Positions 25,383-50,905 of a DNA stretch of 50,905 bases are shown one piece after another. Within the stretch, counting starts at the first letter, position 1. Each line of letters starts with the position of its first letter. The position numbers were made by a program, and so were the translations under genes. This DNA comes from Candidatus Veblenbacteria bacterium (lineage in GTDB: Bacteria > Patescibacteriota > Patescibacteriia > Veblenbacterales > UBA10138). Location of the stretch: NCBI GenBank assembly GCA_030700105.1, contig JAUYKG010000031.1, positions 1 through 50,905 on the forward strand. Direction: 5' to 3'. The notes beneath the pieces were generated by a model that ran no database searches, had not been told where the DNA came from, and saw nothing but the letters and a program-made list of their open reading frames with translations.

Positions 25383-25387
25383 CTATA

Positions 25388-25810: not shown

Positions 25811-25835
25811 CATCCACCCCTACCAAAAAATACCC

Positions 25836-25875: not shown

Positions 25876-25881
25876 GGCAAC

Positions 25882-27153: not shown

Positions 27154-27260
27154 AGGAAAGTATGTAGTAGGTAGTATGTAGGGTAAAAATAAACTCCCCT
27201 GCTCGTCCAGAGCGAACAAGGCCCTATATACTTACCTGCCTACATTCGTATATACCTGCT

Positions 27261-27872: not shown

Positions 27873-27887
27873 GCGGCGCGCTTTAAG

Positions 27888-28694: not shown

Positions 28695-28771
28695 AAGACA
28701 TTATAAAAAATTAATAATGTAGCCAGTTGAGTGTACCACGCCCTTCGCCGGGGCGTCCAGACGCGCTGAAG

Positions 28772-29512
28772 TTAGCGGCTAAATTCGTTCTTAAGCACGC
28801 TCACGATTACTTGGTCCCAAAGCTCGAGCGACAATGCTCCCTCCGCTTTATGCCCGTTTATGAACCAGGTGGGTGTACCTTGCACACCAGCCTCCAGCCC
28901 GCTCGTGTAGTCGTCTTGGATTTCAGCCAGGGTAAGGTGCTGTTCCAGGCAACTCTGGAACTTGTCACGATCAAGGCCTAAAGAACCAGCCAAAGCAAGA
29001 TAGAATTCTGCCCCCAGTTGGTCTTGGTTTTCATAGAGCGCGTCGTGAAACTTCCAGAATGAATCTGCCTTCTGTCGGGCGGCGCAGTTAGCCGCCTCGG
29101 CCGCTGCCACGGCCTGGGTATGGATGGAGGCAACGGGAAAATCCCGATAAATAAGCCGTACCGCCTCGGGGTAACGCCGCAAAACCTCTTTCATGATAGG
29201 AGCCGCCTCACGGCAGAACGGGCATTGGAAATCGCCAAACTCCACAATGACAACGGGCGCCACGGGCGAGCCAATAGTGGGATCGTCAGTAGTGGCTACC
29301 TGCGCCAACGCGTCTTCTGCTGGTGTAGATGTGCTCCCAGGCAGACTGGTGAACCCAGGGGCTGTTTGTTGAGGGGTAAACAGCTTAAATAGTGCCGGTA
29401 CACCAAACCACAGCGCTGCCAGCAATGCCAAGGCAATAAACCAGGGGCGGCGGTACAAACGGCGAACCTTGATTGGCGGCAGTACCGAGGTAGGTAACGT
29501 ATCGGGTATCAT
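28772..29512 (-). CDS. DsbA-like thioredoxin-fold oxidoreductase, membrane-anchored (paralog 3)
   Basis: 246 aa. TM (WFIALALLAALWFGVPALF). CxxC as FQCPFCRE. RDFPVASIHTQAVAAAEAANC. Confidence 0.75.
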   Translation of the reverse strand: MIPDTLPTSVLPPIKVRRLYRRPWFIALALLAALWFGVPALFKLFTPQQTAPGFTSLPGSTSTPAEDALAQVATTDDPTIGSPVAPVVIVEFGDFQCPFCREAAPIMKEVLRRYPEAVRLIYRDFPVASIHTQAVAAAEAANCAARQKADSFWKFHDALYENQDQLGAEFYLALAGSLGLDRDKFQSCLEQHLTLAEIQDDYTSGLEAGVQGTPTWFINGHKAEGALSLELWDQVIVSVLKNEFSR

Positions 29513-36208: not shown

Positions 36209-36961
36209 CTAAACGCCAACAAAACGGAGATACCAATCAATAAGCTCAGACCCCCACAAAAAAGTAACCACTGTGCTGGCTGTTAAAAAAGTACCGAACG
36301 GCAGTTCGCTCTTCAGGCCGTAACGCTTAAACAACATAAGGGCAATACCTGCGAGCGCGCCTGCCCAATACGCCAATGCCAGCGCCACTACTACGTGAGG
36401 CCAACCCAGAGCCGCGCCCATAAGGGCACCCAGGCGTATATCACCACTGCCAATCCATCTCCCGCGCGAGAGTAGGTACTGTACGCCGAATAAACCCGCG
36501 GCCACCACAACGCCCGCCAGTAGACTAAAGGGGGAGAAGCCGCGCACCAAATTAAGGAGTACGAGCGCGGCGGCACCGGAAAGTGTAAGCACGTCGGGCA
36601 AGAGCTTAAACCTAAAATCGAACACGAATAAGGTAACGGCATAGGTTGCCAGAACCAAAAACGTAATAAGCGCCAACCAGTCTCCTGCCGGCAGCACCCA
36701 AGCGCCTAAGACGAACAAAGAGCCAGCAGCTGCCTCCACTGCCGGATACTGCCAGGAAATGACCCGGCGACAAAACACGCACTTGCCTCTTAGTACTACA
36801 AAAGAAAGGAGTGGTATGTTGTGGTACCACTTGAGCTGCGTACCGCAATTGCGGCAACGAGAACGGCCGCCTAGGGTCTCGCTGGCTGCCAAGCGCACCA
36901 CCAGCACGTTTAAAAAACTGCCAACCGCCAGCCCAAGGAGAGCACTCAAAAGCAGCCACAT
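36209..36961 (-). CDS. pilD: Prepilin peptidase (A24 family) PilD
   Basis: 250 aa. N-terminal CxxC...CxxC (CRNCGTQL...CVFCRR), a polytopic membrane protein, and the GSGDIRLGALMGAALGW block (second catalytic Asp motif). Confidence 0.85.
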   Translation of the reverse strand: MWLLLSALLGLAVGSFLNVLVVRLAASETLGGRSRCRNCGTQLKWYHNIPLLSFVVLRGKCVFCRRVISWQYPAVEAAAGSLFVLGAWVLPAGDWLALITFLVLATYAVTLFVFDFRFKLLPDVLTLSGAAALVLLNLVRGFSPFSLLAGVVVAAGLFGVQYLLSRGRWIGSGDIRLGALMGAALGWPHVVVALALAYWAGALAGIALMLFKRYGLKSELPFGTFLTASTVVTFLWGSELIDWYLRFVGV

Positions 36962-37064: not shown

Positions 37065-37508
37065 CTACTGAATACCAGTCGGCGAAGCCGTGTGGGCACC
37101 AGCGGCCAAACCACCAGTGATGCCTTCCAAGGTGAACGTAATTGTGTACGTTGCGTTAGTAGCTGCAAGGTAAGCATAAGCAGCTCCACCTGGTGTTGGG
37201 TTACTAGGCACCTGACCCATATAAGTCGTACCAGTTGCGTCAGCTGTGGCAGTAAACCCAGCAGTACTTAATGTATTGTCAGTTGCAGCCCCTAAAGTAA
37301 TGGCCGGGGATTCAACCGGGTAACCATTTTGGTCAGCGTAGTACAACTCCAGAGCGGTTTGAACTTGCTTGATATCTGCCACGCGCTTGGCGTCACGGGA
37401 CTTGGCGCGGGCGTTGTTCAAGGCTACCACTGCGAGGGTAGACAAAATGCCGATGATGGCGATAACCACCAATAGCTCAATGAGTGTGAAACCTTTTCGT
37501 TGCGTCAT
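37065..37508 (-). CDS. pilA: Type IV major pilin (prepilin)
   Basis: MTQRKG|[24 protein letters not shown] is a class III signal peptide with Glu at +5. 147 aa. It has its own promoter and terminator. Confidence 0.8.
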
Positions 37509-37648: not shown

Positions 37649-38857
37649 CTAGACATTACCAATGGACTGGTAAATGGGCAAAATAATGGCCGACACCATA
37701 ACCCCCACCGCCAAACCAAGTACAACCATAATAATGGGTTCAATGAGCGTTACCAGACCCTGCACCATATTCTCCACCTCGCGGCTGTAAAAGTTGGCCA
37801 AGCGGTTCATAATCTCCTCCAGCCGGCCGGTCTTCTCCCCCACCACCAACATTTGCGACACCATACTCGGCATGGCGGAAGATTCCAAGAACAGGGTGGA
37901 AATGGAGTTGCCCTCCTCCACCTCGTGGATAGTGCGGGTAATAAGATCGCGGTACACCTCGTTCCCTACCACGCCAGCCACCACCTCCAACCCACGGGTT
38001 AAAGGCACACCGCCGAGCATTAAAGAAGCCAACGAACGGGTGAAACGAACCAGATAAATGCGCTGCAGTATCTTGCCAAAAATAGGGAGCCGGAGCTGTA
38101 ATCGGTGCCAGAGAAGTCGGCCCGGCCCGCGGCGGGTCGCATAGCGCACCCCCACCGCAAGAGCGATGAGCAGGATAATGATCAACCACCAGAAGCGCTC
38201 AAAAAATCCACTTGTGGCAATGAGCAACCGAGTGGAGGCTGGAAGTTTGGTGTTCGTCTCTTGTAAAATAGTGGTAAGCTTTGGCACCACGAATGTCATC
38301 ATAATGAACCCAACCACGGTTAGCCCAACCAGAATGAAGGCGGGATAGGTCATGGCTCCCTTGATCTTGCTCATGAGGTCATAATTCTTCTCTGCTTCGT
38401 CGGCTAGGTAGTTCAACGTTTCATCCAGCCGCCCCGAGGTTTCACCGGCACGCACCATGTTGACGTAAAAACTGGAGAACACGTCGGGGTAACGGGACAG
38501 GGCAGCCGAGAGTTTGGCACCGCCCTCCACCTCGTCGGCCACTTCGGAAACGATTATCTTTAAATTCTCGCTTTGCGTTTGCTTGGTGAGAATCCGCAAA
38601 CTCTGCACCAATGGCACGGTGGCCGACACCATTACCGCCAACTGTCTGGAAAACACTACTAGATCACGGGTGCGGATGCGGTTAAAGAACTTCAGCGAAA
38701 CCTGAAAAACGCTCCGGCTAGCACGCTCCTGCAGGAAGAACGGGGTGAGGTTCCGCTCAGCAAGCTCGTCCAGGGCGGCCTGCTCGCTCGGCGCCTCGGC
38801 CACTCCCTCTATGGTCTGCCCTTGCAGGTCTTTAGCCCGGTAATCAAATAATGGCAT
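37649..38857 (-). CDS. pilC: Type IV pilus platform protein PilC (GspF family)
   Basis: 402 aa. Two T2SF repeats (MVRAGETSGRLDETL / LVVGEKTGRLEEIM) and three TM segments. Confidence 0.88.
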   Translation of the reverse strand: MPLFDYRAKDLQGQTIEGVAEAPSEQAALDELAERNLTPFFLQERASRSVFQVSLKFFNRIRTRDLVVFSRQLAVMVSATVPLVQSLRILTKQTQSENLKIIVSEVADEVEGGAKLSAALSRYPDVFSSFYVNMVRAGETSGRLDETLNYLADEAEKNYDLMSKIKGAMTYPAFILVGLTVVGFIMMTFVVPKLTTILQETNTKLPASTRLLIATSGFFERFWWLIIILLIALAVGVRYATRRGPGRLLWHRLQLRLPIFGKILQRIYLVRFTRSLASLMLGGVPLTRGLEVVAGVVGNEVYRDLITRTIHEVEEGNSISTLFLESSAMPSMVSQMLVVGEKTGRLEEIMNRLANFYSREVENMVQGLVTLIEPIIMVVLGLAVGVMVSAIILPIYQSIGNV

Positions 38858-38862
38858 AGGCC

Positions 38863-39936
38863 CTAGCGGCGAAGGATGGACTGAAAGACCTCGGGGTCCA
38901 AGGCGTGCGCCAGCGCCACTTCCTGCATAACCTCACCAGTCTTAACAAGCTCGGCCAGGGAACGGTCGAATGCTACCATACCCTCTTCCCGTGAGGTGAG
39001 GAGTAAATTGGTGAGCTGGTAATCTTTGCCGTCATGAATAGTAGCGCGCGCTGCCGGCGTAGCCACCAACAGCTCACATACCAGTACTCGCCCCCCGCCC
39101 ACGCGCGGCACGAGCTTTTGCACCGAAATAGCCAAAAGCGCCTCGGCTAGGCGACTACGCACGGTGGCTTGCTGTTCGGCGGGAAACTCCGCCACCAACT
39201 GCTCCACCGCCGCCACGCACGAATCCGCTTCCCTAACAGCAAAAACCAACTTGCCGCCCACCGCCAAAGCCAGCGCCTCGTCAATGACCGCGCGGCTCGG
39301 CAAGCGGGACAACCCAACAACATCTACGTCCTCGTTGGGCAACGTGCTCACGGCCTCTTCCCAACTCACCGCGTCCACGCCCACCTCACGCTGATCAATA
39401 ATGCTCTGCTCACCCGTCAACACGTACTCAATCGGCTCTTCAATGGTGGTGATGTGCTTAACCTTGCTGCGGTTAATGGCTTGCAGACAAGCGGCCAACG
39501 TAGTAGTGCGGCCCGAACCGTACGAACCGGCAATAATAACCAATCCCCGTCCGGCTTCTACCAAACGCTCAAACGTAGCCGGCAACCCCAGCTCCTTTAA
39601 GGCCTTGAGCGTGCTTGGTATAAACCGAATAGCCAATTCGGGCAACCCGCGCTGGTAAAAGGCGCTAATACGCAACCGCAAACGATTAAGAAAAGTATGT
39701 CCTATGGTTACCTGACGCTCCGATTCGAAAGTTGCCCGTTGCTGGGGCGTGAGGAGCGTGCCGAGCACGGCCTCCAAAAAATCAGGAGTGATAATATCCT
39801 CCTGCACCAACACCTCTAGTTCACCATCCCGGCGCACCACCGGCTGGCTGCCGGCCCTAAGATGCAAGTCCGACACTTGCTGGCCAGCGAGGTTCGTCAA
39901 AATTTTCTGCAGGATAGCGGTTTCGGTGGTGGACAT
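38863..39936 (-). CDS. pilT: PilT-like hexameric ATPase homolog with degenerate catalytic motifs
   Basis: It aligns with PilT along its whole length (SDLHLRAGSQPVVRRDG..., QREV, VFPAEQQATVRS). The Walker A is GSYGSGRT, the Walker B region VDVVGLSRL and the His-box GKLVFAVREA. ATG 39936 lies 17 nt after the upstream stop. The track start is GTG 39960. Confidence 0.8.
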   Translation of the reverse strand: MSTTETAILQKILTNLAGQQVSDLHLRAGSQPVVRRDGELEVLVQEDIITPDFLEAVLGTLLTPQQRATFESERQVTIGHTFLNRLRLRISAFYQRGLPELAIRFIPSTLKALKELGLPATFERLVEAGRGLVIIAGSYGSGRTTTLAACLQAINRSKVKHITTIEEPIEYVLTGEQSIIDQREVGVDAVSWEEAVSTLPNEDVDVVGLSRLPSRAVIDEALALAVGGKLVFAVREADSCVAAVEQLVAEFPAEQQATVRSRLAEALLAISVQKLVPRVGGGRVLVCELLVATPAARATIHDGKDYQLTNLLLTSREEGMVAFDRSLAELVKTGEVMQEVALAHALDPEVFQSILRR

Positions 39937-39952
39937 GGCGGTACCGGCTCTT

Positions 39953-40333
39953 TTACGCACCCTTGAGGCAGGCGAGAGCTTTGGCTACTACTTCCGAGGG
40001 CAAAAAGTGTGCCTTAATAATGTAGTCGGCGGCCCCCAGGCTCCTGGCTTGATCTATCGCCTCTTGGGTGCTGGAATTGGTAAGCATTAACACCGGGATG
40101 GCACGGGTGGCCTCGTCGGCTTTAAGCTCGCGCAAAACCCCAAAACCATCCAACTTAGGCAGCTCAATATCCAAGAGCACCACCGCCGGTTTTGCGCTCC
40201 GTATGAGCGCCAGCCCGGCCTCGCCGTCCTCCGCCACCTCCACGCGGAATCCTTGCTCGGTGAATTTGAGCTCATACAGACGTCGCAAAAAAGCGTCGTC
40301 TTCCACAATAACAATGGTCTGGGGGTCAGGCAT
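39953..40333 (-). CDS. Stand-alone response-regulator receiver domain (CheY/PilH-like)
   Basis: 126 aa. IVIVEDD, phospho-acceptor context VVLLDIELPKLDG, LTN and YIIKAHF (conserved Thr and Lys). No output domain. Confidence 0.85.
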   Translation of the reverse strand: MPDPQTIVIVEDDAFLRRLYELKFTEQGFRVEVAEDGEAGLALIRSAKPAVVLLDIELPKLDGFGVLRELKADEATRAIPVLMLTNSSTQEAIDQARSLGAADYIIKAHFLPSEVVAKALACLKGA

Positions 40334-40399
40334 AAATAATTCAAAATGTAAAAATCAAAATGCAAAATTATAAAATTTTAATCTTTGCATTTTACATTT
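40334..40399 (-). promoter_or_regulatory. 66-nt extremely AT-rich spacer with an imperfect inverted repeat
   Basis: AAATGT...AAAATGCAAA (40345-40367) faces TTTGCATTTT-ACATTT (40384-40399). It lies between the pilB stop and the receiver-gene start, inside an otherwise tightly packed GC-rich operon. Confidence 0.4.
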
Positions 40400-42136
40400 C
40401 TAATCGTTAGTTGCACTTAAAACCTCTTCCACGGTAGTTATACCTTGGAGCACCTTCAGTAAACCATCCTGCTGCATAGTCATCATACCCTGGCGTTTAA
40501 ACTCCGCCCGTAAGGCCCCGGGGTTCAACCCGGCCACAATAACCTCCTGCAGTTCGTGCGTATTGGAAAAAGCCTCGGCCATGACCACGCGGCCCCGGTA
40601 ACCGGTAAAGTTACAACGGGCGCAGCCCTCCCCCTTCTTGAATTTCCATTCGTCCTTGGGCAAGAGTGCGCGAGCTGTTTCCGGCAATTCAGCCAGCGCC
40701 TGCTTAATCTTGGTTACGAGTTCGGCCGGAACTTGCGCCTCGGTGGCGCAGTAGTGGCAAATGCGCCGCACCAAGCGCTGCGCCACTACCACGTTAATAG
40801 TGGAGGCAATAAGGAACGGTTCCACATGCATATCCACCAAGCGCGGAATGGCACCAAAGGCATCGTTGGTGTGGAGTGTGGACAACACAATATGGCCGGT
40901 GAGCGAGGCGTGAATAGCCAGATCGGCTGTTTCCACGTCGCGAATCTCACCCACCATAATAATGTCGGGGTCTTGGCGCAAAATGGAGCGCAAGCCGGAG
41001 GCAAAAGTTAAACCCACCTCGGAATTCACCTGCGTTTGATTCGCGCCCTCCAGGTAGTACTCCACCGGGTCCTCCAGCGTGATGATGTTGGAACCCTCGT
41101 CGTTCAATTTATTCAAAGCCGTATAGAGCGTGGTGGATTTACCGCTACCGGTGGGGCCGCAAACCAGGAACATACCTTGCGCCTTGCTGAGGTTCTCCTC
41201 GACCACTTCCAAGGTGCGGCCGGAAAACCCGAGCTCGTCGAACTTCTTTAAGCCGGCAGCGGTATCCAGAATTCTTAAAACCACTTTCTCGCTAGAGAGG
41301 AGCGGCATAGTGGAAACGCGGAAATCCACCGAACGGCCACCGATAGTAAGGCGGATACGGCCGTCCTGTGGCACGCGCGTTTCGTCTATCTTCATATTCG
41401 ACAAAACCTTGATACGGGAAATAACAGCCGAATGAATGTAGCGGGGCAACACGATGGAAGTATGCAGCACGCCGTCTATGCGGTAGCGAACGCGCGTTTC
41501 TTCTTGCACTGGTTCTATGTGAATATCCGAGGCTCCGCCCTCCACGGCATGCCGAAAAATAACTGCCACCATCTTGGCCACCGGCGCCGTCTTCACCACC
41601 TCCTCCAGCTTACCCTTGGCCTCTTCCAACTCCGGTACATCGCCGTACTTTTCCTCAGCCTGGGTAAGAGCCTCCTTAACCTCGGTGGATAGGCTGCCAT
41701 ACTGCTTAAAAGCGCTAGCCAGGCTTTCGGGGCTGGTAATGAAATACTTCGGCTTCCAGCCCTGGTCGCGGGCGCGGAATTCAATCGCCTCTATGGCCTT
41801 AAAATTGCCCGGGTTCACCATGGCCACCGACACCTCGTTACCTTCCCGTTCAAAGGTTACTAGTTGATAATTCTCAGCTAGTTCAAAAGGCAAGAGCTGC
41901 ACCACTTCGCGCGCCAGCTCCCTATCCGTCAGATCTATGAATGGCAGATTAAAAAGCTGGATTTTGGCCTCCACGAGATCGCGCGGCTTGAGCAGTTTCT
42001 GTTCCAGCAACACGTCCTCGAATTGCCGGTCGGTTTCCTGCGCAACCTTCAGCAACTCCTTCACCTTCTCAGGCGAAAGGAGCTGACGCGCCAACAGCAC
42101 GTCGGGGAGCTGGAGGTTAAGCTTGGTTTTGGGCAT
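40400..42136 (-). CDS. pilB: Type IV pilus assembly ATPase PilB (GspE family)
   Basis: 578 aa. Walker A GPTGSGKST, Asp box ITLEDPVEY, Walker B DIIMVGEIRD, His box GHIVLSTLHTND and tetracysteine CHYC...CARC are all intact. N-terminal T2SSE_N domain. Confidence 0.92.
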   Translation of the reverse strand: MPKTKLNLQLPDVLLARQLLSPEKVKELLKVAQETDRQFEDVLLEQKLLKPRDLVEAKIQLFNLPFIDLTDRELAREVVQLLPFELAENYQLVTFEREGNEVSVAMVNPGNFKAIEAIEFRARDQGWKPKYFITSPESLASAFKQYGSLSTEVKEALTQAEEKYGDVPELEEAKGKLEEVVKTAPVAKMVAVIFRHAVEGGASDIHIEPVQEETRVRYRIDGVLHTSIVLPRYIHSAVISRIKVLSNMKIDETRVPQDGRIRLTIGGRSVDFRVSTMPLLSSEKVVLRILDTAAGLKKFDELGFSGRTLEVVEENLSKAQGMFLVCGPTGSGKSTTLYTALNKLNDEGSNIITLEDPVEYYLEGANQTQVNSEVGLTFASGLRSILRQDPDIIMVGEIRDVETADLAIHASLTGHIVLSTLHTNDAFGAIPRLVDMHVEPFLIASTINVVVAQRLVRRICHYCATEAQVPAELVTKIKQALAELPETARALLPKDEWKFKKGEGCARCNFTGYRGRVVMAEAFSNTHELQEVIVAGLNPGALRAEFKRQGMMTMQQDGLLKVLQGITTVEEVLSATND

Positions 42137-42202: not shown

Positions 42203-42691
42203 CTACTCGATTAACCCGCGCTCATTCACTACTCCGCCTGCGTCACCGCCCTCCTGATAAAAGTTGATGGTAAATGTGGTTGCCGTCAGCGCGTTCAATG
42301 TATAGTTACATAAGCCGGTGGCGGGGTTGGCACAAGCTGACGTGCCAGTAGGGTCTTTAATTTGAGCGATGCCGGGTAAGAAATCATCTATGCCGGTCGT
42401 GCCACCATTACCTACGCAGGCACTTAGCTGCGTCCCGTTAGGTAGAACCGCTCCAGTACTACTCTTACAAGCTCCGCTGAAGGCGCCTGTGCCATCAAGG
42501 TAAAGCTGCATGCCCGTTGAAACCGCGCTCATATCCGACAAGCGCTTGGCGTCGCGCGAGCGGATACGGGCATTATTAAGGGCCACCACGGCGAGCGTAG
42601 AAAGCAGGCCGATGATGGAAATAACCACCAAAAGCTCAATCAAGGTAAAACCTTTTTTGGCTTTGGTTTTGGTAGAGGTAACCATAAGCAT
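42203..42691 (-). CDS. Second type IV pilin paralog
   Basis: MLMVTSTKTKAKKG|[28 protein letters not shown]. The N-terminal 40 aa are nearly identical to the major pilin and the C-terminal domain is divergent. It is embedded between the PilP-like gene and pilB. Confidence 0.75.
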   Translation of the reverse strand: MLMVTSTKTKAKKGFTLIELLVVISIIGLLSTLAVVALNNARIRSRDAKRLSDMSAVSTGMQLYLDGTGAFSGACKSSTGAVLPNGTQLSACVGNGGTTGIDDFLPGIAQIKDPTGTSACANPATGLCNYTLNALTATTFTINFYQEGGDAGGVVNERGLIE

Positions 42692-43068: not shown

Positions 43069-43725
43069 TCAACTAGGCAAGAAAACCGTGTGAAAATTAA
43101 GCGTGTAGCTCACTTCACCGCTACCTGCCGACTTAGTGGTAAAGGTGACCGAAGACAGATTGAGAAGCCGTATGCTCTCTTGAGCCGCGGCGATAAATTC
43201 CTTAAGCGCACCATACTCACCGCCTTCAATTACCATATTCACCCTCAACTCTTGTACCATGGTCTCCACATTCGCCCCGGGAGACAAAGGGCTTGTAATA
43301 TTACCTACTTCGTCTCGCACTGGCACTCCTTCCCCTGCCTGGTTACCGCTGGCAAAACCAAGGTCCGTAATGGCAAAACCAGTCGTCTCGGCAATGCCCT
43401 CCAACTGAGCTAGCAGGTTAGGAATATCTTGCCCTTGCGGCAAGGCGAGGTCCAAACGTTTGCGATCAGTGGCGGTAAGCGCAGTGTAATCCTCGGTGAG
43501 TTGCTTAAGCTTGGACATCTCCGCCTCCACCGCAGCGCGTGAAGAAGCAAACCCATCAAGCTCGGGCAGAGCCCGGAGCGTCTGCCACTGTGGTCTCAAG
43601 AGGAACCACCAACCGAGCAGGAGCACTACCACGATTAATGTAACCGCCAACGGCCAGGGTGAACGTGGCGCGCGTGGCGCGGGTGAGGATAGGCCTGAAA
43701 GCTGGGCTGTGCGTACGGGTGACAT
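43069..43725 (-). CDS. pilO: PilO-like type IV pilus alignment protein
   Basis: 218 aa. One TM (WPLAVTLIVVVLLLGWWFLL), a coiled-coil segment, then a ferredoxin-like C-domain (IPNLLAQLEGIAETTGFAITDLGF). Gene order pilM-pilN-pilO. Confidence 0.6.
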   Translation of the reverse strand: MSPVRTAQLSGLSSPAPRAPRSPWPLAVTLIVVVLLLGWWFLLRPQWQTLRALPELDGFASSRAAVEAEMSKLKQLTEDYTALTATDRKRLDLALPQGQDIPNLLAQLEGIAETTGFAITDLGFASGNQAGEGVPVRDEVGNITSPLSPGANVETMVQELRVNMVIEGGEYGALKEFIAAAQESIRLLNLSSVTFTTKSAGSGEVSYTLNFHTVFLPS

Positions 43726-43734: not shown

Positions 43735-44712
43735 TTACTGGCTGCGGGCAATAAAGAGTTCGGAGGGGAAGGTGAGAGCTATAGTAAACTGCACCACCGT
43801 AGTGTTCTCGCCGGCTTGAGTAAGCCCCTTACCGAGCGCAAGATTGGCCAGTATGACATCGTGCGCTTCCTCGCCTTCCTCAAAAGCCAGCATCTGCCTA
43901 CCCACTTCGGTGTAGTTGAGTGCCTGGCCTGTTACCGTCACCCGGCCGTTGGCGTCGGCCGCTAGGCTGAGGAGCTGAACGGCGGGTATGGTGTGCTTCT
44001 CAAGGAATACAAAGAACGGCGCCCAGTCGGCCCGGCGATCTAATTGTTCCCCCAAAGCCTGAACCCGACGCTGCGTCGCCATAGCCTCCTCGGCAGCCGC
44101 CCGGACCGCCTCCAGCTTACCTTGTAACACAATCACCTCTTGCTGCACTTTTTCATTCTCGGCCACCTTGTTCACCACGTAACTCCGCACCACGAAGTAC
44201 GCCACCGCCACCAGTAGCAACGCCGCCACACCCGCGAGAGCAATAACCCTCACGGTTCGCGGCGGCATTCCTCCACCCTCTTGCTCTGGTATAAGGTTTA
44301 CGTCCAGCATGATCGGTGGCGTACCACCCACAGGTGGACGCGGGACTACGGCGCGAGGTGGCACTGCCAGTGGCGGTGCGGGCGGCCGGGGCGCTACAGG
44401 TTGAGGAGCTGCTGGCTTGTAAACAGGCATAGTACTTATGGTGGGCGCAGCCGAGGCCGGTGAAACTGACTTGGGGACTGGGGGAGGAGCAGCAGATGCC
44501 GCTGGTGCGGAGGGAGTAACTGAAGCTACGCTCAAATTCTGCTTTAAGGCCGATACGAGCTGCTGCCAACGACCGGCAGGCACACCCTCCTCCGGAACCT
44601 GGGCCCGGGCGGTGGGATTGGAAAAACGCGGCGCGGACGCGGACGCGGCTTTCTGCCGCGCCTCCTGCTCGCGCGCTCGTAACTCTTCAGGTAGTAAATT
44701 AATGTCCGCCAT
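43735..44712 (-). CDS. pilN: PilN-like protein with duplicated INLLP motif and Pro-rich insertion
   Basis: The N-terminus MADINLLPEEL is the PilM-binding INLLP motif. A second DVNLIPEQ (aa 137-144) lies just before the TM (VIALAGVAALLLVAVAYFVV), followed by the coiled-coil/ferredoxin-like PilN core. ATG 44712 lies 5 nt after the pilM stop. Confidence 0.65.
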   Translation of the reverse strand: MADINLLPEELRAREQEARQKAASASAPRFSNPTARAQVPEEGVPAGRWQQLVSALKQNLSVASVTPSAPAASAAPPPVPKSVSPASAAPTISTMPVYKPAAPQPVAPRPPAPPLAVPPRAVVPRPPVGGTPPIMLDVNLIPEQEGGGMPPRTVRVIALAGVAALLLVAVAYFVVRSYVVNKVAENEKVQQEVIVLQGKLEAVRAAAEEAMATQRRVQALGEQLDRRADWAPFFVFLEKHTIPAVQLLSLAADANGRVTVTGQALNYTEVGRQMLAFEEGEEAHDVILANLALGKGLTQAGENTTVVQFTIALTFPSELFIARSQ

Positions 44713-44717: not shown

Positions 44718-45794
44718 TTATATGAATTGGCGCATAGCCAGGCCAATGGCCGAAGCGAACTGCGGACCAACCTCATCCAACACCGGCTTAAGTTCCACAG
44801 GGTAGCTCACTCGAGCCCACGGATCACCAATGTACACCTTAATCTGGAATAGGTTCTCCAAGTACTCAGGTAAACGTGGCAGGTAGGACGACCCTCCGGT
44901 GAGAATGATCTTATCAATCGGCCGGGCGGACTGGCTTTGGTAGAGCGAAAAATTGTACTTAATATCGTTTACGATAGGGCTAATAGTTGCCTCGATGGTG
45001 CGGGGAATACCACCCGCCGCCGAGCCTTGGGCGTTCAAACCAATATCGCGTTTAAATTGTTCAGCCCGCCTAATGTCAACGTTCAAGCTGTTGGCTATCG
45101 CCTTGGTGATAGTGAGTCCGCCCACATCGATGCTGCGATTCAAAATGGGGATGCCGTTCTCTATCACGCAGATGTCGGTGGTAACCGCACCTAAGTCCAC
45201 CACCATAACCACCTCACGAGCACCACCTACCAAGCTGCGTTCCAGAGCAAAGGCCTCGGTTTCCAAGCTTAGGAGTTCCAATTGGCTGTCGCGAAAAATG
45301 GTGAGGTACTTCTTAACTAGATTCTGCGGCGCCGCGGTCAGGAGTACGCGTATGTTCTTCTTGGGTGTCTTAACAGCCTCACTGCCGGTAGCAACAGGCG
45401 CGGGCGTATCGGCCAAGAACTTCCAATCCAGGATCATTTCCTCTAAAGGCAAAGGCACGAACTTGCGAGCTTCCCAGCGAATGGCTGCAGCCAGCTCCTT
45501 TTCCGACATGGCAGGGAGGGTGATAACGGAACTGAAAACGGCAAAGGTGGGGAGTGCCGCCGAAACCCGGCGGGAAGTGGTACGCGCCTGCGCACAAATG
45601 GCCTTGAGTGTGGTGACAATGCGCTCTATATCACGTTCAGCGTCCACCTTAGTGGCGTCCCCGGTGTACTCGGCCCGACCGTACGTTACCAAACGGGGGG
45701 TATGGTTGGGGCCTGGCGCCAATTCCACCACTTTGATACTGGCTGTACCAATATCCACGCCCAGAAAAGTCTTGCGCTTACCAAAAAAACTCAT
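44718..45794 (-). CDS. pilM: Type IV pilus assembly protein PilM (actin-like ATPase fold)
   Basis: 358 aa. FLGVDIGTASIKVVEL phosphate-1 motif, VVDLGAVTTDI, and ILTGGSSYLPRLPEYL. Confidence 0.85.
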   Translation of the reverse strand: MSFFGKRKTFLGVDIGTASIKVVELAPGPNHTPRLVTYGRAEYTGDATKVDAERDIERIVTTLKAICAQARTTSRRVSAALPTFAVFSSVITLPAMSEKELAAAIRWEARKFVPLPLEEMILDWKFLADTPAPVATGSEAVKTPKKNIRVLLTAAPQNLVKKYLTIFRDSQLELLSLETEAFALERSLVGGAREVVMVVDLGAVTTDICVIENGIPILNRSIDVGGLTITKAIANSLNVDIRRAEQFKRDIGLNAQGSAAGGIPRTIEATISPIVNDIKYNFSLYQSQSARPIDKIILTGGSSYLPRLPEYLENLFQIKVYIGDPWARVSYPVELKPVLDEVGPQFASAIGLAMRQFI

Positions 45795-45942: not shown

Positions 45943-48888
45943 CTACGGGGTACGGAATTGCCAGGTAGGTAAGGTATGTAGGATATCGCTGAACCCGGGC
46001 GGAGTATTCAAGAGCACGCGCCCATCCGCCACCACGCGCTCGGAGGGTGCGCCACCAGGCGAGGATGTGCGTTGGAACAGGAACTGTCGGGCGATTGCCG
46101 CGCCGTAAATACTCAACTGGGCCGAACCAGCACCAGTGCTAAAAGTGCCACCGCTACCGGTACCGGCTACGAAGAAGGAACCCACCACCTGTCCCACAGT
46201 AGGCGCAATAGTGACGTTACCCATAACCAGCCAACCCACCGAAGCCAAATTGCGGGCGCTTAAGCCTGGTGCGACCACCTGGTAAGAAAGATCAGAATTA
46301 ATGGTTAAGTCGCCGTCCACAATTATAAGGCCACCCCCCGAAGTTCCGCCCGTGCCGTTAACCAGCTCCGTAAGTTGACTCACTCGCAGGTTATCCTTCA
46401 CCCAATACACACGACCGGCCAACGCGGCGGGGGGGTCACGGACCACTTCACTCAAATCCCTGCCGCCGACGTTCGTGAAAACGCTCACCGTGTGGCCGTA
46501 ACTATTGGTACCATTATTTACCACCTCAATGCCGGCGAGTGTGTGGGTAAGGCCGTAGTAATCAAACGAACTCACCTGCGGCGCACACGGTGGTGAACTG
46601 CACCCGCCTGCCGAAGGATATGCGAGTTGGCCAAAACTCGGGTTCACGGGGGTAAGGCCGGCTGGCGCCGGGGCGGCCACAAAATTCTCTATCACCGTAG
46701 GTTGCGCACTCGTACCGCCACCCAAAATAAAGTACGTAGCGTTGTAGCTGCCAGAAGGTGGCGCGTACTGCGCTTTTATATTCCCCTGGGAATAAATACT
46801 CCCCTGCTCCACCGAAAGGTACGGCTGATTGCACGCCGCCACTAGATTATAATGCACACGGTACTGGGTAACACCACAACCTTGCACAGAAAAACTCAAA
46901 CTGTTGTTTTGTCCGGGCAAGAGGTCCAGCAATGGGATGTCGCCCGAAGATACTCCGGAATTCAAATTGCCTGAGTAACTCGCCGGATTGCCAACCGCGT
47001 TGGCGTCTGCCGCAGGATTCGTGGTGGTACCGCTGCAGGTTGCGCCACGAAACTCAATCATAGAAGAACCCGACTCAATAGAACCAGCATCTATGGTGAA
47101 ATTAACCGTATCGCTGTCATTGGCAGTGTTGAACCCGCTCGTAGGATAGTACTTGGTTTCGGTGTGGTTAATGGTAAAGGTGGAGACGCTGGAACCTAAG
47201 CCAGAATTCAAGCCGTCGGAAGCTACTACGGTAACGTACTGAGCTGTGCTTATTTCTGGTGCACAGGAAGAACTCCACGTATAGGTGCAGTTGGTATAGT
47301 TGTTAGGCGAACCGGAACAACCAGCCGAAGCTGGGGTAAGGCCCGAGGCGATAAGTGTAGCCAAACTACCCGAGGAAGGGCCATAGTACACGCTAAAGCC
47401 CAAACTCTGTGAGCTGTTGGGGTCGGTTGCGTTCCAAGTTATAGTAGCAGTCGTGTTCACGGGGGTAGCACCATTAGGAACAATGCTCACGTTCGTAACC
47501 GAGGGCGCGGTGTTCACGGTAAAGGTCCAAACCGGCCCGGTAGTAATGTTACTAGCGGCATCCTGCGCCACCACCCGCCAATAGTACTGGCTACCAGCCA
47601 AAAAGTTACTGAGGGGATTGTAGGTTATGGGAGTTTGATTACCAAAAGCAACCTGGGTACCGTTAAGGACTGAGGGTGGATTGGTTGTTCCTGTATATAC
47701 CGAATAGGTTACCGTATCGCTACCGCCTTCAGGGTCACCTCCGTCCCACGACAAATTAGTGTTAGCTGGCGCCAGTGTACTGGCGGCCGAAACCGGGTTG
47801 GGGTTGGACGGCATGTACGGTGCGGCATTCACCTGGTAGGGGGTGCATGAATCACCATTGGCCGCAGCGGTATAGCTACTCTCGTTTTGTGTTGGGCTGG
47901 TGCTGTCACGTGCCCGCGCGCGGAAGCAATAAGTAGTATTGGCGACCAACGTTACGGCTGGTGAACAGCCTGAACCAAAGTTCAACGAGGTTTGCCCGGC
48001 TACAATGCTGGTGCGGCAGTTCGTCCAGGCTCCGCTAGAATTGGCACGGTACTGTAGGTCCCAGGTGCTCACGCCGCTGTTACCCACACCTGGGGCGGGA
48101 ATGGGGTAATCAACCAGCGTGGCTGAGACTATAAAAGAAGACGATTGGTTACCGGGAGGCGAAGAAGCTGCCGCGAACGGGAAACTCTGGTCTACTTGTA
48201 TTTGTCCTGAGGATGGTACCGTGGCGGAAAACACAACAGGCGAGGCACCCGTATCGTCAGCCGTACTGCGGAAGCGGTAACTGGCTCCATTGGTAGCGAA
48301 TGTATAGCTACCGTTATACGTATAAGTGGATTGCCCTGTGGTACTGGGATTACCTCCGGGAACGTTATTCCAACTACCACTATTTATTGATACCTGCGTG
48401 CGGCAATAACTAAGGGTTTGCCCGGAATTCGCAGCACAACCGGTAGTGTAATCAAACGTAGCATAGTTGTACCAACCAGAACTTGATGGTGTGCCCGAAA
48501 GGCTGGCTGACAAAACGGCGGAGGTAATGGTAACAAGCACCGGATCAGAGGCTGTGGATTGGTGGTTGGCCTCGTCATAGGCGTAGACGCGGATAGTCCA
48601 ACTGCCGGCTGTATTCCAAGTATGATCAGCCGAAACTTGGGTACCGGAAGCTACAAAACCGCTCGCCGGCATGCGGGTATCAGCCGAGCCGTCGCCCCAG
48701 CTGTATACGTAGTACACCTGGTCGCCTTCGGGGTCAATCGCTTGCGCAGTTAGGGTACAAACAGAAGTTAGGGAGCCGCTAAAACCAACGCAGGTCGGCG
48801 CGGCGGCAACAGGTTGCGCCCACACAACAAAGAACATAGCCGAAACAGCCACACCAAGGCTTATACCAATGTACCTTACATAGCTCAT
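45943..48888 (-). CDS. Very large secreted protein with PKD-like and FN3-like repeats (candidate adhesin)
   Basis: 981 aa. Signal peptide (...VVWAQPVAAA|PT), a PKD-like block DPEGDQVYYVYSWGDGS, FN3-like blocks (NLSWDGGDPEGGSDTVTYSVY and ATITWNATDPNSSQSLGFSVYY), Thr/Ser/Gly/Asn-rich composition, and many paired Cys. Confidence 0.6.
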   Translation of the reverse strand: MSYVRYIGISLGVAVSAMFFVVWAQPVAAAPTCVGFSGSLTSVCTLTAQAIDPEGDQVYYVYSWGDGSADTRMPASGFVASGTQVSADHTWNTAGSWTIRVYAYDEANHQSTASDPVLVTITSAVLSASLSGTPSSSGWYNYATFDYTTGCAANSGQTLSYCRTQVSINSGSWNNVPGGNPSTTGQSTYTYNGSYTFATNGASYRFRSTADDTGASPVVFSATVPSSGQIQVDQSFPFAAASSPPGNQSSSFIVSATLVDYPIPAPGVGNSGVSTWDLQYRANSSGAWTNCRTSIVAGQTSLNFGSGCSPAVTLVANTTYCFRARARDSTSPTQNESSYTAAANGDSCTPYQVNAAPYMPSNPNPVSAASTLAPANTNLSWDGGDPEGGSDTVTYSVYTGTTNPPSVLNGTQVAFGNQTPITYNPLSNFLAGSQYYWRVVAQDAASNITTGPVWTFTVNTAPSVTNVSIVPNGATPVNTTATITWNATDPNSSQSLGFSVYYGPSSGSLATLIASGLTPASAGCSGSPNNYTNCTYTWSSSCAPEISTAQYVTVVASDGLNSGLGSSVSTFTINHTETKYYPTSGFNTANDSDTVNFTIDAGSIESGSSMIEFRGATCSGTTTNPAADANAVGNPASYSGNLNSGVSSGDIPLLDLLPGQNNSLSFSVQGCGVTQYRVHYNLVAACNQPYLSVEQGSIYSQGNIKAQYAPPSGSYNATYFILGGGTSAQPTVIENFVAAPAPAGLTPVNPSFGQLAYPSAGGCSSPPCAPQVSSFDYYGLTHTLAGIEVVNNGTNSYGHTVSVFTNVGGRDLSEVVRDPPAALAGRVYWVKDNLRVSQLTELVNGTGGTSGGGLIIVDGDLTINSDLSYQVVAPGLSARNLASVGWLVMGNVTIAPTVGQVVGSFFVAGTGSGGTFSTGAGSAQLSIYGAAIARQFLFQRTSSPGGAPSERVVADGRVLLNTPPGFSDILHTLPTWQFRTP

Positions 48889-49426: not shown

Positions 49427-50905
49427 CTACTGCACCACAGGCTTTGCTGGTGCGGCGTTGTTCTCGGTAAAGGTCCAGCTGGAATCGTCCAGCGCATTGC
49501 CTACACTGTCCACCGATTGCACCCGCACGGTGTAGGGCCCGTTCGCGAGCACCCCGCTCCACTCCCCTGTGCCAATACTCAAGGTGGTAGTGCCGCTCGG
49601 GAAGCTTTTTGTTTTTACCGTATTGCCGCCCAACGTTACAGTGAGCGTGCTCGCGCCAATGCTCGAAAGGTTATCCGACAGCGTTACTTGCAGGGTGGGG
49701 CGCAGCTCCACAACTGTTCCACCTTTGGCCGGAATATGATTAGAAGCGACTGGCGGTACATTATCATAAGTACCGGAGCGGGCCGTAACCTCAGTTGACC
49801 AATTGCCAACGTTATCCACGGTATGCAGGCCGTACCACCAAATGCCAGAGGACGGTGGGGTGTCGGTGGTGGAGAGCGTACCAATGGCCACATCCTTCAC
49901 TTTGGCCCATACCCCCGGCGCCCCGCCCTGATTAGGCGCGCGCCAGAGCTCATAGCGAGCTAGGCCCGAGAGCGGGTCGGAGGACGCCGTCCACGACAAG
50001 GAGAAGCTCGTGCTGGTGGGTGAACCGGTAAGGGTGAGGGTAACTTGCGTGGGGGCTTGGGTATCCACCTGAATGTTGCCGGAGGCGGGCACGCTAGTGG
50101 AGGTAATACTGCCCAGGCTGTCTGTCTCCACGGTGCGGAAGCGGTAATTGGAGCCCGATACCAGCGCGCGCGTTTGGTTGGCGGTCTGCGTGGTCGAGAT
50201 GTTGTTCCAGCTGCCGCCGGAGTTGGTGGAGACCTGGGTAACGCAGAAGGTGGCGGGGTTGGTGGTGGAACCGCCTTGGGCAGTACAGGTAGGCGTGTAG
50301 GTAAAGGTGGTGGTGGTGGTCCAGCCAGAGGTGGAGGGGTTGCCCACTAGCGAAGCGGAACGGCTGCCGCCTGAAATAGTATAGGTGTAGGTGGTAACAG
50401 CCGAGGAGTTGCCAGCGGCGTCACAGGTACGCACCTTGAGCACGCGCGTGGAGTTGTACACCGTAGGATTGATAAAGGCGGCAGAGCCACAGGTGGGGTC
50501 AGCTGGGGTAGTAGCGCCCGAGGTGTGACGCACCGTCACCGCGGTAGTGGGGCTGCCCTGATCAGCGCCGGGGTTGCAAGTAACGGAGACGGAGGGAGAA
50601 TACGTGCCGGTGCCGGGAGCGCAGGAGGCGGCGGCAGGGATGTTGCCGGCGCCGCGGTCCACAATGATATCAGCTGAGATACCGGAGGTGGATGAATTCC
50701 CTGCTGTGTCTGCTGCCACCACTCGGTACCTATAGGTACCGGCGTTCAGGGCTGGGGATGGCGTCCACGAGGTACCGGTAACTGGTGTGGGTTGGTTCGG
50801 GATGGCCAGCACAAAAGCCCCACCGTTCAAAGATTGGTAGACAAAGTAACCAGCCAGGCCGGAGAGGGGGTCTGAAGAAGCAGACCAGGTACAGGTGTGG
50901 GTGCC
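49427..50905 (-). CDS. Large FN3/Ig-like repeat surface protein, 5'-truncated by the window edge
   Basis: The frame stays open to position 50905 (GTHTCTWSASSDPLSGLAGYFVYQSLNGG...), so the TTG at 50830 is not the start. It has repeated W.ASSDPLSGLA.Y FN3-like units and shares a Cys-containing module with the 981-aa protein. Confidence 0.6.
   Translation of the reverse strand, partial: GTHTCTWSASSDPLSGLAGYFVYQSLNGGAFVLAIPNQPTPVTGTSWTPSPALNAGTYRYRVVAADTAGNSSTSGISADIIVDRGAGNIPAAASCAPGTGTYSPSVSVTCNPGADQGSPTTAVTVRHTSGATTPADPTCGSAAFINPTVYNSTRVLKVRTCDAAGNSSAVTTYTYTISGGSRSASLVGNPSTSGWTTTTTFTYTPTCTAQGGSTTNPATFCVTQVSTNSGGSWNNISTTQTANQTRALVSGSNYRFRTVETDSLGSITSTSVPASGNIQVDTQAPTQVTLTLTGSPTSTSFSLSWTASSDPLSGLARYELWRAPNQGGAPGVWAKVKDVAIGTLSTTDTPPSSGIWWYGLHTVDNVGNWSTEVTARSGTYDNVPPVASNHIPAKGGTVVELRPTLQVTLSDNLSSIGASTLTVTLGGNTVKTKSFPSGTTTLSIGTGEWSGVLANGPYTVRVQSVDSVGNALDDSSWTFTENNAAPAKPVVQ

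What the first reader, a model, noticed from the sequence alone, without database searches (positions are those of the whole stretch)
38863..40333. The only PilT-family gene in the pilus locus has lost every core catalytic residue and is paired with a CheY-like receiver
The protein aligns with retraction ATPase PilT over its full length, but four catalytic features are substituted:
- Walker A is GSYGSGRT, with Lys replaced by Arg.
- The Walker B segment reads DVDVVGLSRL where PilT has DIILVGEMRD, so the catalytic Glu is lost.
- The His-box reads GGKLVFAVREA where PilT has TGHLVFGTLHT, so both His are lost.
- The AIRNLIRE helix is AARATIHD.

The neighbouring PilB keeps all of these motifs, so this is not a sequencing or composition artefact of the region. 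A single-domain response regulator sits immediately upstream in the same operon, with 17 nt between its stop and the PilT-like ATG. This suggests a non-catalytic PilT-like pseudo-ATPase that acts as a regulatory or clutch subunit under phosphorelay control, rather than as a retraction motor.
Basis: partly seen in the sequence, partly recalled or inferred. Interest (0 to 1): 0.62.

Follow-up and report, generated by a model that had tools for sequence, protein, structure and literature searches.

The report
Conserved catalytically dead PilT paralog
The pilus operon of this ultrasmall (Patescibacteria) bacterium carries a well-conserved copy of the pilus-retraction motor PilT that has lost its ATP-splitting residues, but a normal PilT sits elsewhere in the genome, so the dead copy is probably a regulator or docking ring and not the only motor.

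Summary
The 357-aa protein (38863-39936, minus strand) aligns without gaps to solved PilTs. It has Arg for the Walker A Lys, Arg for the catalytic Glu, and Lys/Glu for the two His-box His. The Asp box and the PilT fold are kept (model TM 0.93 to PilT4).

It is not an artefact or a pseudogene:
- It belongs to a monophyletic clade found in at least 28 of 71 genera sampled from its class.
- Its dN is like that of PilB and PilC.
- Constraint is relaxed only in residues 201-262, and the Walker A Arg is itself conserved (90%).

- A fully canonical PilT lies alone on another contig. The same orphan was found in 19 of 19 other clade genomes checked, and it groups with non-Patescibacteria PilTs.
- The CheY-like receiver is not specific to the dead PilT. 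The order pilB-receiver-pilT-pilC occurs in 38 of 82 Patescibacteria loci with a canonical PilT, and the receiver sometimes remains where the PilT was deleted.

The best reading is a nucleotide-binding, non-hydrolysing PilT ring that still docks on the platform and modulates or bridges the real motors. No published description was found.

The parts
38863..39936 (-). Degenerate PilT paralog ('dPilT', 357 aa) occupying the pilT slot of the pilB-receiver-pilT-pilC operon
   Evidence: It matches TIGR01420 over its full length at 297 bits, below the 319.1 cut-off. It aligns to PilT 2ewv with one single-residue gap downstream of the motifs. The AF2 model has pLDDT 92.9 and TM 0.93 to PilT4 6ojy_F.
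39502..39528 (-). Walker A, GSYGSGRTT (residues 137-145). R143 (codon 39508-39510) replaces the Lys.
   Evidence: Arg occupies this column in 90% of 108 clade members, and Lys in 100% of 159 canonical PilTs.
39295..39330 (-). Atypical Walker B region, DVDVVGLSRLPS (residues 203-214). R211 (codon 39304-39306) sits in the catalytic Glu column.
   Evidence: D203 is kept. The G-E-M-R columns are relaxed in the clade.
39226..39258 (-). His-box remnant, GGKLVFAVREA (residues 227-237). K229 and E236 replace the two His.
39031..39054 (-). AIRNLIRE-equivalent helix, AARATIHD (residues 295-302)
   Evidence: The clade consensus is xAVRxxIR[ED], so the motif is only partly eroded.
39953..40333 (-). Single-domain CheY-like receiver (126 aa), 16 nt upstream of dPilT
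   Evidence: PF00072 scores 79.8 bits. D12, D13, D55, Y104 and K107 are conserved in 70 pilus-locus receivers across the phylum.
40400..42136 (-). PilB extension ATPase with MshEN domain and all catalytic motifs intact
   Evidence: TIGR02538, 563.6 bits.
37649..38857 (-). PilC platform protein. Its start lies 5 nt after the dPilT stop.
   Evidence: T2SSF x2; PilC/GspF models.
44718..45794 (-). PilM
   Evidence: PF11104 at 1.7e-41.
43069..43725 (-). PilO-like protein. The ORF 43735-44712 upstream is the likely PilN.
   Evidence: Weak PF04350 hit. The same gene order occurs in relatives.
42203..42691 (-). Pilin (N_methyl motif) upstream of pilB
37065..37508 (-). Pilin (N_methyl, T2SSG-like) downstream of pilC, followed by a terminator-like hairpin at 37034-37009
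36209..36961 (-). Prepilin peptidase PilD
   Evidence: A24_N_bact plus Peptidase_A24.

Best explanation
**What the gene is.** It is the positional ortholog of the operon-encoded PilT of Patescibacteria. It has been converted into a pseudo-ATPase that binds nucleotide but hydrolyses ATP little or not at all.

**How it arose (inferred).** An ancestor of this class, whose named relatives are Veblen-, Kerfeld-, Falkow- and Komeilibacteria, gained a second, fully canonical PilT. That copy now sits alone elsewhere in the genome and probably does the ATP-driven retraction. Once released from catalysis, the operon copy fixed Arg in the P-loop. It lost the His box and, in the window's sub-lineage, the catalytic Glu. 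It kept the fold, the P-loop glycines, the Asp box, the conserved N-domain arginines and most of the C-terminal domain.

**What it does (inferred).**
- The protein still forms a PilT-like ring that docks on the PilC/PilM platform of its own machine.
- There it sets the balance between PilB (extension) and the orphan PilT (retraction).
- It would do this either by occupying the platform as a brake or placeholder, or by serving as the docking layer through which the active motor engages.
- The CheY-like receiver encoded 16 nt upstream is a general motor regulator of the Patescibacteria pilus operon. It probably acts on this ATPase/platform exchange.

**Shown here:** the loss of the catalytic residues, the preserved fold, the purifying selection, the clade, the co-occurring canonical PilT and the synteny.

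**Inferred:** nucleotide binding, ring formation, platform docking, the regulatory role and the target of the receiver.
For: **Catalytic residues and fold.**
- The residues that replace K136, E204, H222 and H229 (P. aeruginosa numbering) are confirmed by an alignment whose only gap is one residue far downstream of the motifs. Mutating K136, E204 or H229 abolishes PilT function (PMC6762196, PMC6858323).
- The fold is intact: pLDDT 92.9 and TM 0.93 to PilT4.

**Clade and selection.**
- The degenerate forms make a monophyletic clade (100* in FastTree and in IQ-TREE quick).
- The clade is present in at least 28 of 71 genera sampled from the class, always in the pilB-(receiver)-pilT-pilC slot.
- Against relatives at 73-78% identity, dN is 0.17-0.23, compared with 0.13-0.21 for PilB and 0.12-0.18 for PilC. 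dS is saturated.
- Site analysis of 108 clade members and 159 canonical PilTs shows which positions are kept: G131, G137, G142, N155, E166, P168, E170, Q182, R183, D188, D203, R35, R87, G281, G282 and E288.
- The K-to-R switch is itself conserved (90%). Constraint is lost only in residues 201-262.

**The canonical partner.**
- The genome's own canonical PilT lies on C36 (452 bits, all motifs intact).
- 27 of the 28 clade genomes have a second PilT match. All 19 other genomes checked carry it as an orphan with canonical motifs.
- The orphans form one clade nested among non-Patescibacteria PilTs (99*/95*).

**Precedent.** Engineered ATPase-dead PilT (K136A) stays bound to the T4P machine through PilC. 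It still supports retraction by bridging a second ATPase, PilU (PMC6762196; bioRxiv 10.1101/2025.10.30.685630).
Against: **No direct evidence for the mechanism.**
- There is no biochemical or interaction evidence. Nucleotide binding by an Arg P-loop is inferred from engineered K-to-R mutants of other P-loop NTPases (general knowledge).

**Signs that the role is dispensable.**
- The operon PilT has been deleted repeatedly within the class. Nine orthologous loci read pilB-pilC and five read pilB-receiver-pilC.
- The orphan PilT evidently does not need it in those lineages.

**Points against a PilU-type arrangement.** The orphan is of PilT length (345 aa), carries an AIRNLIRE-type motif (AVSNLIRE), and has no PilU-like C-terminal extension.

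**Points that leave activity open.** About 38% of clade members still keep the Walker B Glu, so some members may retain activity.

**Limits of the evolutionary inference.**
- The root of the PilT tree is not known.
- That the degenerate clade descends from the operon PilT rests on synteny, not on the tree.
Confidence: 0.6

Rival explanations
1. Obligate adaptor. The dead PilT ring is the layer that physically bridges the orphan active PilT to PilC as stacked hexamers. This would be a natural equivalent of PilT(K136A)-PilU in Vibrio cholerae.
For: - In V. cholerae, ATPase-dead PilT is enough to couple PilU to the machine.
- Here a dead in-operon copy co-occurs with an active unlinked copy in 27 of 28 genomes.
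- The AIRNLIRE-type helix is largely kept in the clade.
Against: - The orphan persists in 26 class genomes that have no degenerate-type match. In the 14 informative orthologous loci, the operon copy is deleted.
- The orphan has PilT length and motifs and no PilU-type C-terminal tail.
- The orphan is not adjacent to the dead copy.
Confidence: 0.2
2. The protein is still a working but slow ATPase that uses non-canonical residues, such as Arg in the P-loop and the retained Asp-box glutamates. It would act as a weak second retraction or extension motor.
For: - The Asp box E166/E170, D203, Q182/R183 and the P-loop glycines are invariant.
- Many clade members keep the Walker B Glu (signatures RERN and RERD).
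Against: - The window's protein lacks the Lys, the catalytic Glu and both His together.
- Single substitutions of K136, E204 or H229 already abolish PilT function (PMC6762196, PMC6858323).
- The columns around the active site (201-262) evolve almost freely in the clade.
Confidence: 0.12
3. The gene is a relic on its way to loss after displacement by the acquired orphan PilT, with no remaining function.
For: - The gene has been deleted repeatedly within the class.
- Constraint on the catalytic region is relaxed.
- Terminal branches are longer than those of the orphan.
Against: - The frame is open at full length in all 28 class genomes, spread over different genera.
- dN is similar to that of PilB and PilC, with dS saturated.
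- Many non-catalytic positions are invariant, and the replacement Arg is conserved.
- The fold is predicted with high confidence.
Confidence: 0.04
4. The degenerate subunits mix with the orphan PilT in one heterohexamer and tune its conformational cycle.
For: - Natural single-chain tandem PilT-PilT proteins exist in which one half is degenerate (Arg P-loop, no Glu or His) and the other is canonical. Examples are P0128, and P0180 from a Verrucomicrobiota MAG.
Against: - PilT and PilU are reported to be homohexamers that do not mix (title and abstract of PMC6821130).
- The two proteins here share only about 35% identity.
- The tandem proteins are unverified gene calls from other phyla.
Confidence: 0.04

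Closest known systems
PilT, the type IVa pilus retraction ATPase (P. aeruginosa PilT 3jvv, A. aeolicus PilT 2ewv, G. metallireducens PilT4 6ojx/6ojy)
   Same: - Length, two-domain fold (TM 0.93) and about 34% identity over the full length.
- The Asp box, the P-loop glycines, the QR..D segment and the C-terminal GGG/E motif.
- The position between pilB and pilC, as in other Patescibacteria.
   Different: - The Walker A Lys is Arg, the catalytic Glu is Arg, and the two His-box His are Lys and Glu.
- The NCBIfam score is below the family cut-off.
- Columns 201-262 are unconstrained across the clade.
Engineered ATPase-dead PilT (K136A or E204A) working with PilU in Vibrio cholerae and Acinetobacter baylyi
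   Same: A PilT that cannot hydrolyse ATP coexists with a second, active PilT-family ATPase. In that system the dead PilT remains docked on PilC and still supports retraction as a bridge.
   Different: - Here the dead form is natural and ancient.
- The active partner is a PilT-type protein, not a PilU-type one. It has no C-terminal extension and carries an AIRNLIRE-like motif.
- The active partner is unlinked, and it persists in lineages that lost the dead copy.
PilT paralogs of Geobacter, Myxococcus and Neisseria (PilT1-4, PilT2, PilU)
   Same: There are several PilT-family proteins per genome, with a division of labour.
   Different: Those paralogs keep all four catalytic signatures (stated for G. 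sulfurreducens in PMC5065972). This one does not.
CheY-like regulators of T4P motors (PilG/PilH of the Pil-Chp system; PatA-type PixG/PixE, which bind PilB1 and PilC in Synechocystis)
   Same: A small receiver protein is dedicated to a type IV pilus motor. The phospho-acceptor Asp, the Lys and the aromatic switch residue are conserved.
   Different: - The protein has a single domain and no PATAN domain.
- It is encoded inside the pilB-pilT-pilC operon.
- No chemosensory genes were seen within the window.
- Only one (Cache-HAMP) histidine kinase was detected in the genome.

Membership tests
PilT/PilU family type 4a pilus ATPase (TIGR01420) | Full-length profile match above the curated cut-off | tested here: not met
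   The match scores 297 bits against a cut-off of 319.1, although it spans profile positions 2-341 of 343. The genome's orphan PilT scores 452 bits.
PilT/PilU family type 4a pilus ATPase (TIGR01420) | Two-domain PilT fold (N-terminal PAS-like domain plus RecA-like ATPase domain) | tested here: met
   The AF2 model has pLDDT 92.9 and pTM 0.88. Foldseek gives TM 0.93 and rmsd 1.8 to PilT4 6ojy_F.
PilT/PilU family type 4a pilus ATPase (TIGR01420) | Walker A GxxGxGK[ST] with Lys | tested here: not met
   The motif is GSYGSGRTT, with R143 in the Lys column.
PilT/PilU family type 4a pilus ATPase (TIGR01420) | Atypical Walker B Dh4GE with the catalytic Glu | tested here: not met
   The segment is DVDVVGLSRL, with R211 in the Glu column and no Glu nearby.
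PilT/PilU family type 4a pilus ATPase (TIGR01420) | His box with two His (TGHLVxxTLHT) | tested here: not met
   The segment is GGKLVFAVREA, with K229 and E236 in the His columns.
PilT/PilU family type 4a pilus ATPase (TIGR01420) | Asp box (IEDPIEY) | tested here: met
   The motif is TIEEPIEY. E166, P168 and E170 are 98-100% conserved in the clade.
PilT/PilU family type 4a pilus ATPase (TIGR01420) | AIRNLIRE helix (PilT-specific) | tested here: inconclusive
   The segment is AARATIHD, with three of eight positions identical (A, R, I) and an acidic last residue (Asp for Glu). The clade consensus AVRxxIR[ED] is closer to PilT.
PilT/PilU family type 4a pilus ATPase (TIGR01420) | ATP hydrolysis and pilus retraction activity | not testable with these tools
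   This needs purified protein or genetics.
Response regulator receiver domain (PF00072), CheY-like single-domain class | Profile match above the cut-off and no output domain | tested here: met
   The match scores 79.8 bits against a cut-off of 30.2. The protein is 126 aa and consists of one domain.
Response regulator receiver domain (PF00072), CheY-like single-domain class | Acidic pocket, phospho-acceptor Asp, conserved Lys and aromatic switch | tested here: met
   D12, D13, D55 and K107 are 100% conserved, and Y104 is 99% conserved, in 70 pilus-locus receivers.
Response regulator receiver domain (PF00072), CheY-like single-domain class | A cognate histidine kinase | tested here: inconclusive
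   One Cache-HAMP-HisKA kinase lies on contig C44 and is cut off by the contig end. The only HATPase_c hit is GyrB. No link between this kinase and this receiver is shown.
PilT-PilU two-motor retraction system | The second ATPase is encoded next to pilT and carries the PilU-type C-terminal extension | tested here: not met
   The active PilT lies on another contig with no pil genes within about 1.5 kb. It is 345 aa long and ends like PilT.

The most novel reading that the evidence does not exclude
In a class-level lineage of Patescibacteria, the resident operon PilT has been turned into a permanent, non-hydrolysing docking ring. This would be a natural counterpart of the laboratory PilT(K136A) mutant. 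A horizontally acquired PilT motor would be coupled to the PilC platform through this ring. The co-transcribed CheY-like receiver would gate the exchange between PilB and the retraction stack. That would make it the first natural example of a pseudo-ATPase layer in a type IV pilus motor.
Probability: 0.2. Interest if true: 0.8.

Novelty: new variant of a known kind. Interest (0 to 1): 0.55.

Why it matters
Type IV pili are thought to be central to DNA uptake and host attachment in ultrasmall episymbiotic bacteria. How their extension and retraction are regulated is an open question (stated in PMC11623550).

A conserved natural PilT that cannot hydrolyse ATP would be useful for three reasons:
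- It offers a natural test of the idea, so far based on engineered mutants, that a PilT ring has a structural or bridging role separable from its motor activity.
- It corrects the tempting conclusion that this lineage lacks a retraction motor. The motor is there, unlinked and apparently of foreign origin.
- It warns annotators that the 'PilT' found in the pilus operon of these genomes is not the active enzyme.

Tried and rejected
- **The search for related loci.** Those loci turned out to be useful as a control set for receiver synteny.
- **Receiver-PilT fusions.** I looked for them as Rosetta-stone evidence among the long hits of the representative search. The N-terminal extensions of ten long PilT-domain proteins had no receiver domain, and one had MshEN.
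- **dN/dS.** dS is saturated between the window and its nearest available relatives, and the only near-identical pair has no substitutions in this gene. Only relative dN could be used.
- **Promoter and terminator scans.** Counts across the locus were no higher than in shuffles.
- **Acetate kinase.** It was sought as a source of acetyl phosphate for the receiver and was not found.
- **Rejected explanations.** An assembly or composition artefact is rejected because the substitutions recur in many assemblies. A recent pseudogene is rejected because the clade is deep and the frame is intact.
Full report
**Observation**

On the minus strand the window carries a compact type IV pilus locus:
- a PKD protein and pilM (44718-45794);
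- a pilN-like ORF and pilO (43069-43725);
- a pilin (42203-42691) and pilB (40400-42136);
- a 126-aa receiver (39953-40333) and a 357-aa PilT-like gene (38863-39936);
- pilC (37649-38857), a pilin (37065-37508) and pilD (36209-36961);
- four unassigned ORFs.

The receiver stop and the PilT-like ATG are 16 nt apart. The PilT-like stop and the pilC ATG are 5 nt apart.

The PilT-like protein matches NCBIfam TIGR01420 over profile positions 2-341 of 343, but at 297 bits, under the 319.1 cut-off. phmmer aligns residues 18-356 to Aquifex PilT (2ewv) with one single-residue gap near residue 314, far from the motifs. The motif columns are therefore not a matter of hand alignment:
- Walker A is GSYGSGRTT (R143 for Lys).
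- Walker B is DVDVVGLSRLPS against DPDVIFVGEMRD (R211 in the catalytic Glu column).
- The His box is GGKLVFAVREA (K229 and E236 for the two His).
- AIRNLIRE is AARATIHD.
- The Asp box, TIEEPIEY, is kept.

These positions equal P. aeruginosa PilT numbering plus 7. They correspond to K136, E204, H222 and H229. Mutating K136, E204 or H229 abolishes PilT function (PMC6762196; PMC6858323). The neighbouring PilB has all four motifs intact.

**Not an artefact, not a pseudogene**

- An AlphaFold2 model built on 40 clade sequences has mean pLDDT 92.9. It superposes on G. metallireducens PilT4 with TM 0.93 and rmsd 1.8 Å.
- Among the 120 best homologs in the protein collection, about 75 share the Arg P-loop and an altered His box, down to about 35-40% identity. 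Source names include Candidatus Veblenbacteria (93% identity, partial), Kerfeldbacteria, Falkowbacteria and 'Patescibacteria group'.
- In two trees the degenerate forms are one side of a branch with maximal support. These are FastTree on 145 rows and IQ-TREE quick under LG+C20 on 89 rows.
- Relatives at 73-78% identity have the same operon.
- Their dN for this gene is 0.17-0.23. That is like PilB (0.13-0.21), PilC (0.12-0.18) and the receiver (0.16-0.28), and dS is saturated.

**What selection keeps and what it lets go**

I compared 108 clade members with 159 canonical PilTs, column by column.
- Kept: G131, G137, G142, N155, E166, P168, E170, Q182, R183, D188, D203, R35, R87, G281, G282 and E288.
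- Switched: Lys143 is replaced by Arg in 90% of members. This is a conserved replacement, not drift.
- Relaxed: the loss of constraint is confined to residues 201-262. This region covers the GEMRD end of Walker B, the AETGH...LHT His box and the following helix.
- Elsewhere the entropy is like that of canonical PilT.

Across the clade the four-column signature (Lys/Glu/His/His) is mostly RERN or RERD. In the window's sub-lineage it is RRKE. A few basal members still have Lys. Degeneration was therefore stepwise, and the window's protein is at the far end.

The pattern suggests a protein that still needs its phosphate-binding loop and its overall architecture but no longer needs the chemistry of hydrolysis. 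That an Arg P-loop binds but barely hydrolyses nucleotide is an inference from engineered K-to-R mutants of other P-loop NTPases (general knowledge). It was not tested here.

**A canonical PilT exists elsewhere**

- Searching the 811-kb genome (95.7% complete) with TIGR01420 finds a second PilT on contig C36 at 452 bits. It reads GPTGCGKST, TLEDPIEF, DPNVIMVGEMRD, TGHLVLATLHT and AVSNLIRE, and has no pilus genes around it.
- In 71 genomes of the same class, each from a different genus, at least 28 carry the degenerate type in the operon slot. Of these, 27 have a second PilT match.
- I fetched the second copy from 19 of them. All are canonical orphans with nearly identical motifs.
- In the tree these orphans form one clade (100*). 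It is nested with 99* and 95* support among PilTs of non-Patescibacteria, with Hydrogenedentota-labelled MAGs nearest. It lies apart from the operon PilTs of other Patescibacteria.
- Most other Patescibacteria have a single, canonical PilT in the operon.

The simplest history is as follows. The class ancestor acquired a second PilT, probably by transfer. The resident operon copy was then freed from catalysis. The tree is unrooted, so descent of the degenerate clade from the operon PilT rests on synteny.

In class genomes without the degenerate type, the orthologous locus reads pilB-pilC (nine loci) or pilB-receiver-pilC (five loci). The operon copy has therefore been deleted repeatedly while the orphan stays.

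**The receiver**

- The receiver family in this operon position keeps D12, D13, D55 (phospho-acceptor) and K107 in all 70 sequences collected across the phylum. Y104 (the aromatic switch position) is kept in 99%.
- It is not specific to the degenerate PilT. The order pilB-receiver-pilT is found in 25 of 29 degenerate loci and in 38 of 82 Patescibacteria loci with a canonical operon PilT.
- It is lost more often where the PilT was deleted: 5 of 14 loci keep it, against 25 of 28 (Fisher p = 0.0006, not corrected for phylogeny). This hints at a functional tie to the PilT slot in general.
- The genome has three single-domain receivers and no receiver with an output domain.
- It has one Cache-HAMP-HisKA kinase, cut off by a contig end. 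The only HATPase_c hit is GyrB. No acetate kinase was found.
- Phosphorelay control is thus possible but not shown.
- CheY-type and PatA-type regulators that act on T4P motors are known (PilG/PilH, PMC11656802; PatA-type regulators binding PilB1 and PilC, bioRxiv 10.1101/2021.06.11.447907).

**Mechanism**

The closest functional precedent is engineered.
- In V. cholerae, PilT K136A or E204A still supports near-normal pilus function through PilU, and PilU cannot act without PilT (PMC6762196).
- ATPase-dead PilT forms stable foci at the machine that depend on the platform protein, and it bridges PilU to the machine (bioRxiv 10.1101/2025.10.30.685630).

By analogy, I propose that the degenerate PilT is a nucleotide-binding, non-hydrolysing ring. 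It would still dock on PilC/PilM and control which active ATPase (PilB or the orphan PilT) works on this machine.

Two versions are possible: a brake or placeholder, or a docking layer for the orphan. Three facts argue against an obligate bridge and favour a modulatory role:
- The orphan persists where the degenerate copy is gone.
- The orphan has PilT length and an AIRNLIRE-type motif.
- The orphan lacks a PilU-type tail.

Residual slow ATPase activity cannot be excluded for clade members that keep the Glu. It is unlikely for this protein.

**Comparison with what is known, and novelty**

- Known PilT paralogs such as those of Geobacter keep all catalytic signatures (PMC5065972).
- The Saccharibacteria T4P study reports well-conserved Walker boxes in PilB and PilT (PMC11623550).
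- Full-text searches for degenerate or pseudo-ATPase PilT found nothing.
- The protein fails the catalytic membership criteria of the PilT family while keeping its fold and genomic slot. I file it as a new variant of a known kind.

Earlier notes of this scan describe the same clade in other genomes. Several of them propose that these lineages have no hydrolysing PilT at all. For this genome and 19 others, that proposal is contradicted by the orphan PilT found here.

**Limits**

- No biochemistry, multimer modelling or transcript data were available.
- Class membership and counts come from anonymous genome handles and a sample of 71.
- The trees are quick or FastTree analyses.

Noticed in passing
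G000 contig C36:14494-15531 (L001 1495-2532): An orphan canonical PilT (345 aa, all motifs intact) has no pilus genes nearby. Its orthologs in the class form a clade nested among non-Patescibacteria PilTs, which suggests horizontal acquisition.
   Followed up: yes
G000 contigs C14:8030-11974 (L003), C5:4125-7871 (L006), C20:8278-12075 (L004): There are three further PilB-like ATPases. Two of them lie next to PilC-like genes, and none has a PilT or a receiver. The genome therefore encodes several pilus or secretion-type machines that may share the single active PilT.
   Followed up: partly
G000 contig C44:1-1482 (L169); C41 (L166 1483-1860); C26 (L168 1483-1869): The two-component inventory is minimal. 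It has one Cache-HAMP-HisKA sensor kinase, truncated by the contig end, and three single-domain receivers with no DNA-binding output. One receiver is a close paralog of the pilus-locus receiver and sits next to a ComEC-like competence gene and ndk.
   Followed up: partly
window 40334-40399 (minus strand, between pilB and the receiver): A 66-nt AT-rich spacer folds into a long AU hairpin (-16.2 kcal/mol, z = -3.4, 0 of 200 shuffles as good). The hairpin ends about 13 nt upstream of the receiver start. In relatives (L170, L172) pilB and the receiver are only 6 nt apart, so this element is specific to the lineage.
   Followed up: partly
proteins P0128 (708 aa), P0180 (676 aa, Verrucomicrobiota MAG), P0159 (716 aa): These are single-chain tandem PilT-PilT proteins from other phyla. 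In them one half has an Arg P-loop and lacks the catalytic Glu and His box, while the other half is canonical or partly degenerate. This is a possible natural coupling of pseudo-PilT and active PilT modules. The gene calls were not verified.
   Followed up: partly
class genomes, loci L173-L186 and L190: In class genomes that lack the degenerate PilT, the orthologous locus reads pilB-pilC (9 loci) or pilB-receiver-pilC (5 loci). The PilT slot has therefore been deleted repeatedly and independently.
   Followed up: yes
window 27261-29512 and 26359-27219: Three consecutive DsbA-like thioredoxin-fold genes (203, 268 and 246 aa) lie next to prolipoprotein diacylglyceryl transferase, on the same strand as the pilus locus and separated from it by an amidase gene and ligA.
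   Followed up: no
window 45943-48888 and 49427-50830: Large secreted-type proteins with weak PKD and Big_13 Ig-like domains lie directly upstream of pilM. A 982-aa PKD protein sits in the same position in relative L172, so this is a possible pilus-associated adhesin.
   Followed up: no
window 24001-26000 and 4001-6000: These two stretches have low GC (0.42 and 0.46) against a background of about 0.54.
   Followed up: no
L170/L171 9080-10885: In close relatives, a PMT_2/TMEM260-like glycosyltransferase gene is inserted between the pilin after pilC and pilD. It is absent from the window's locus.
   Followed up: no
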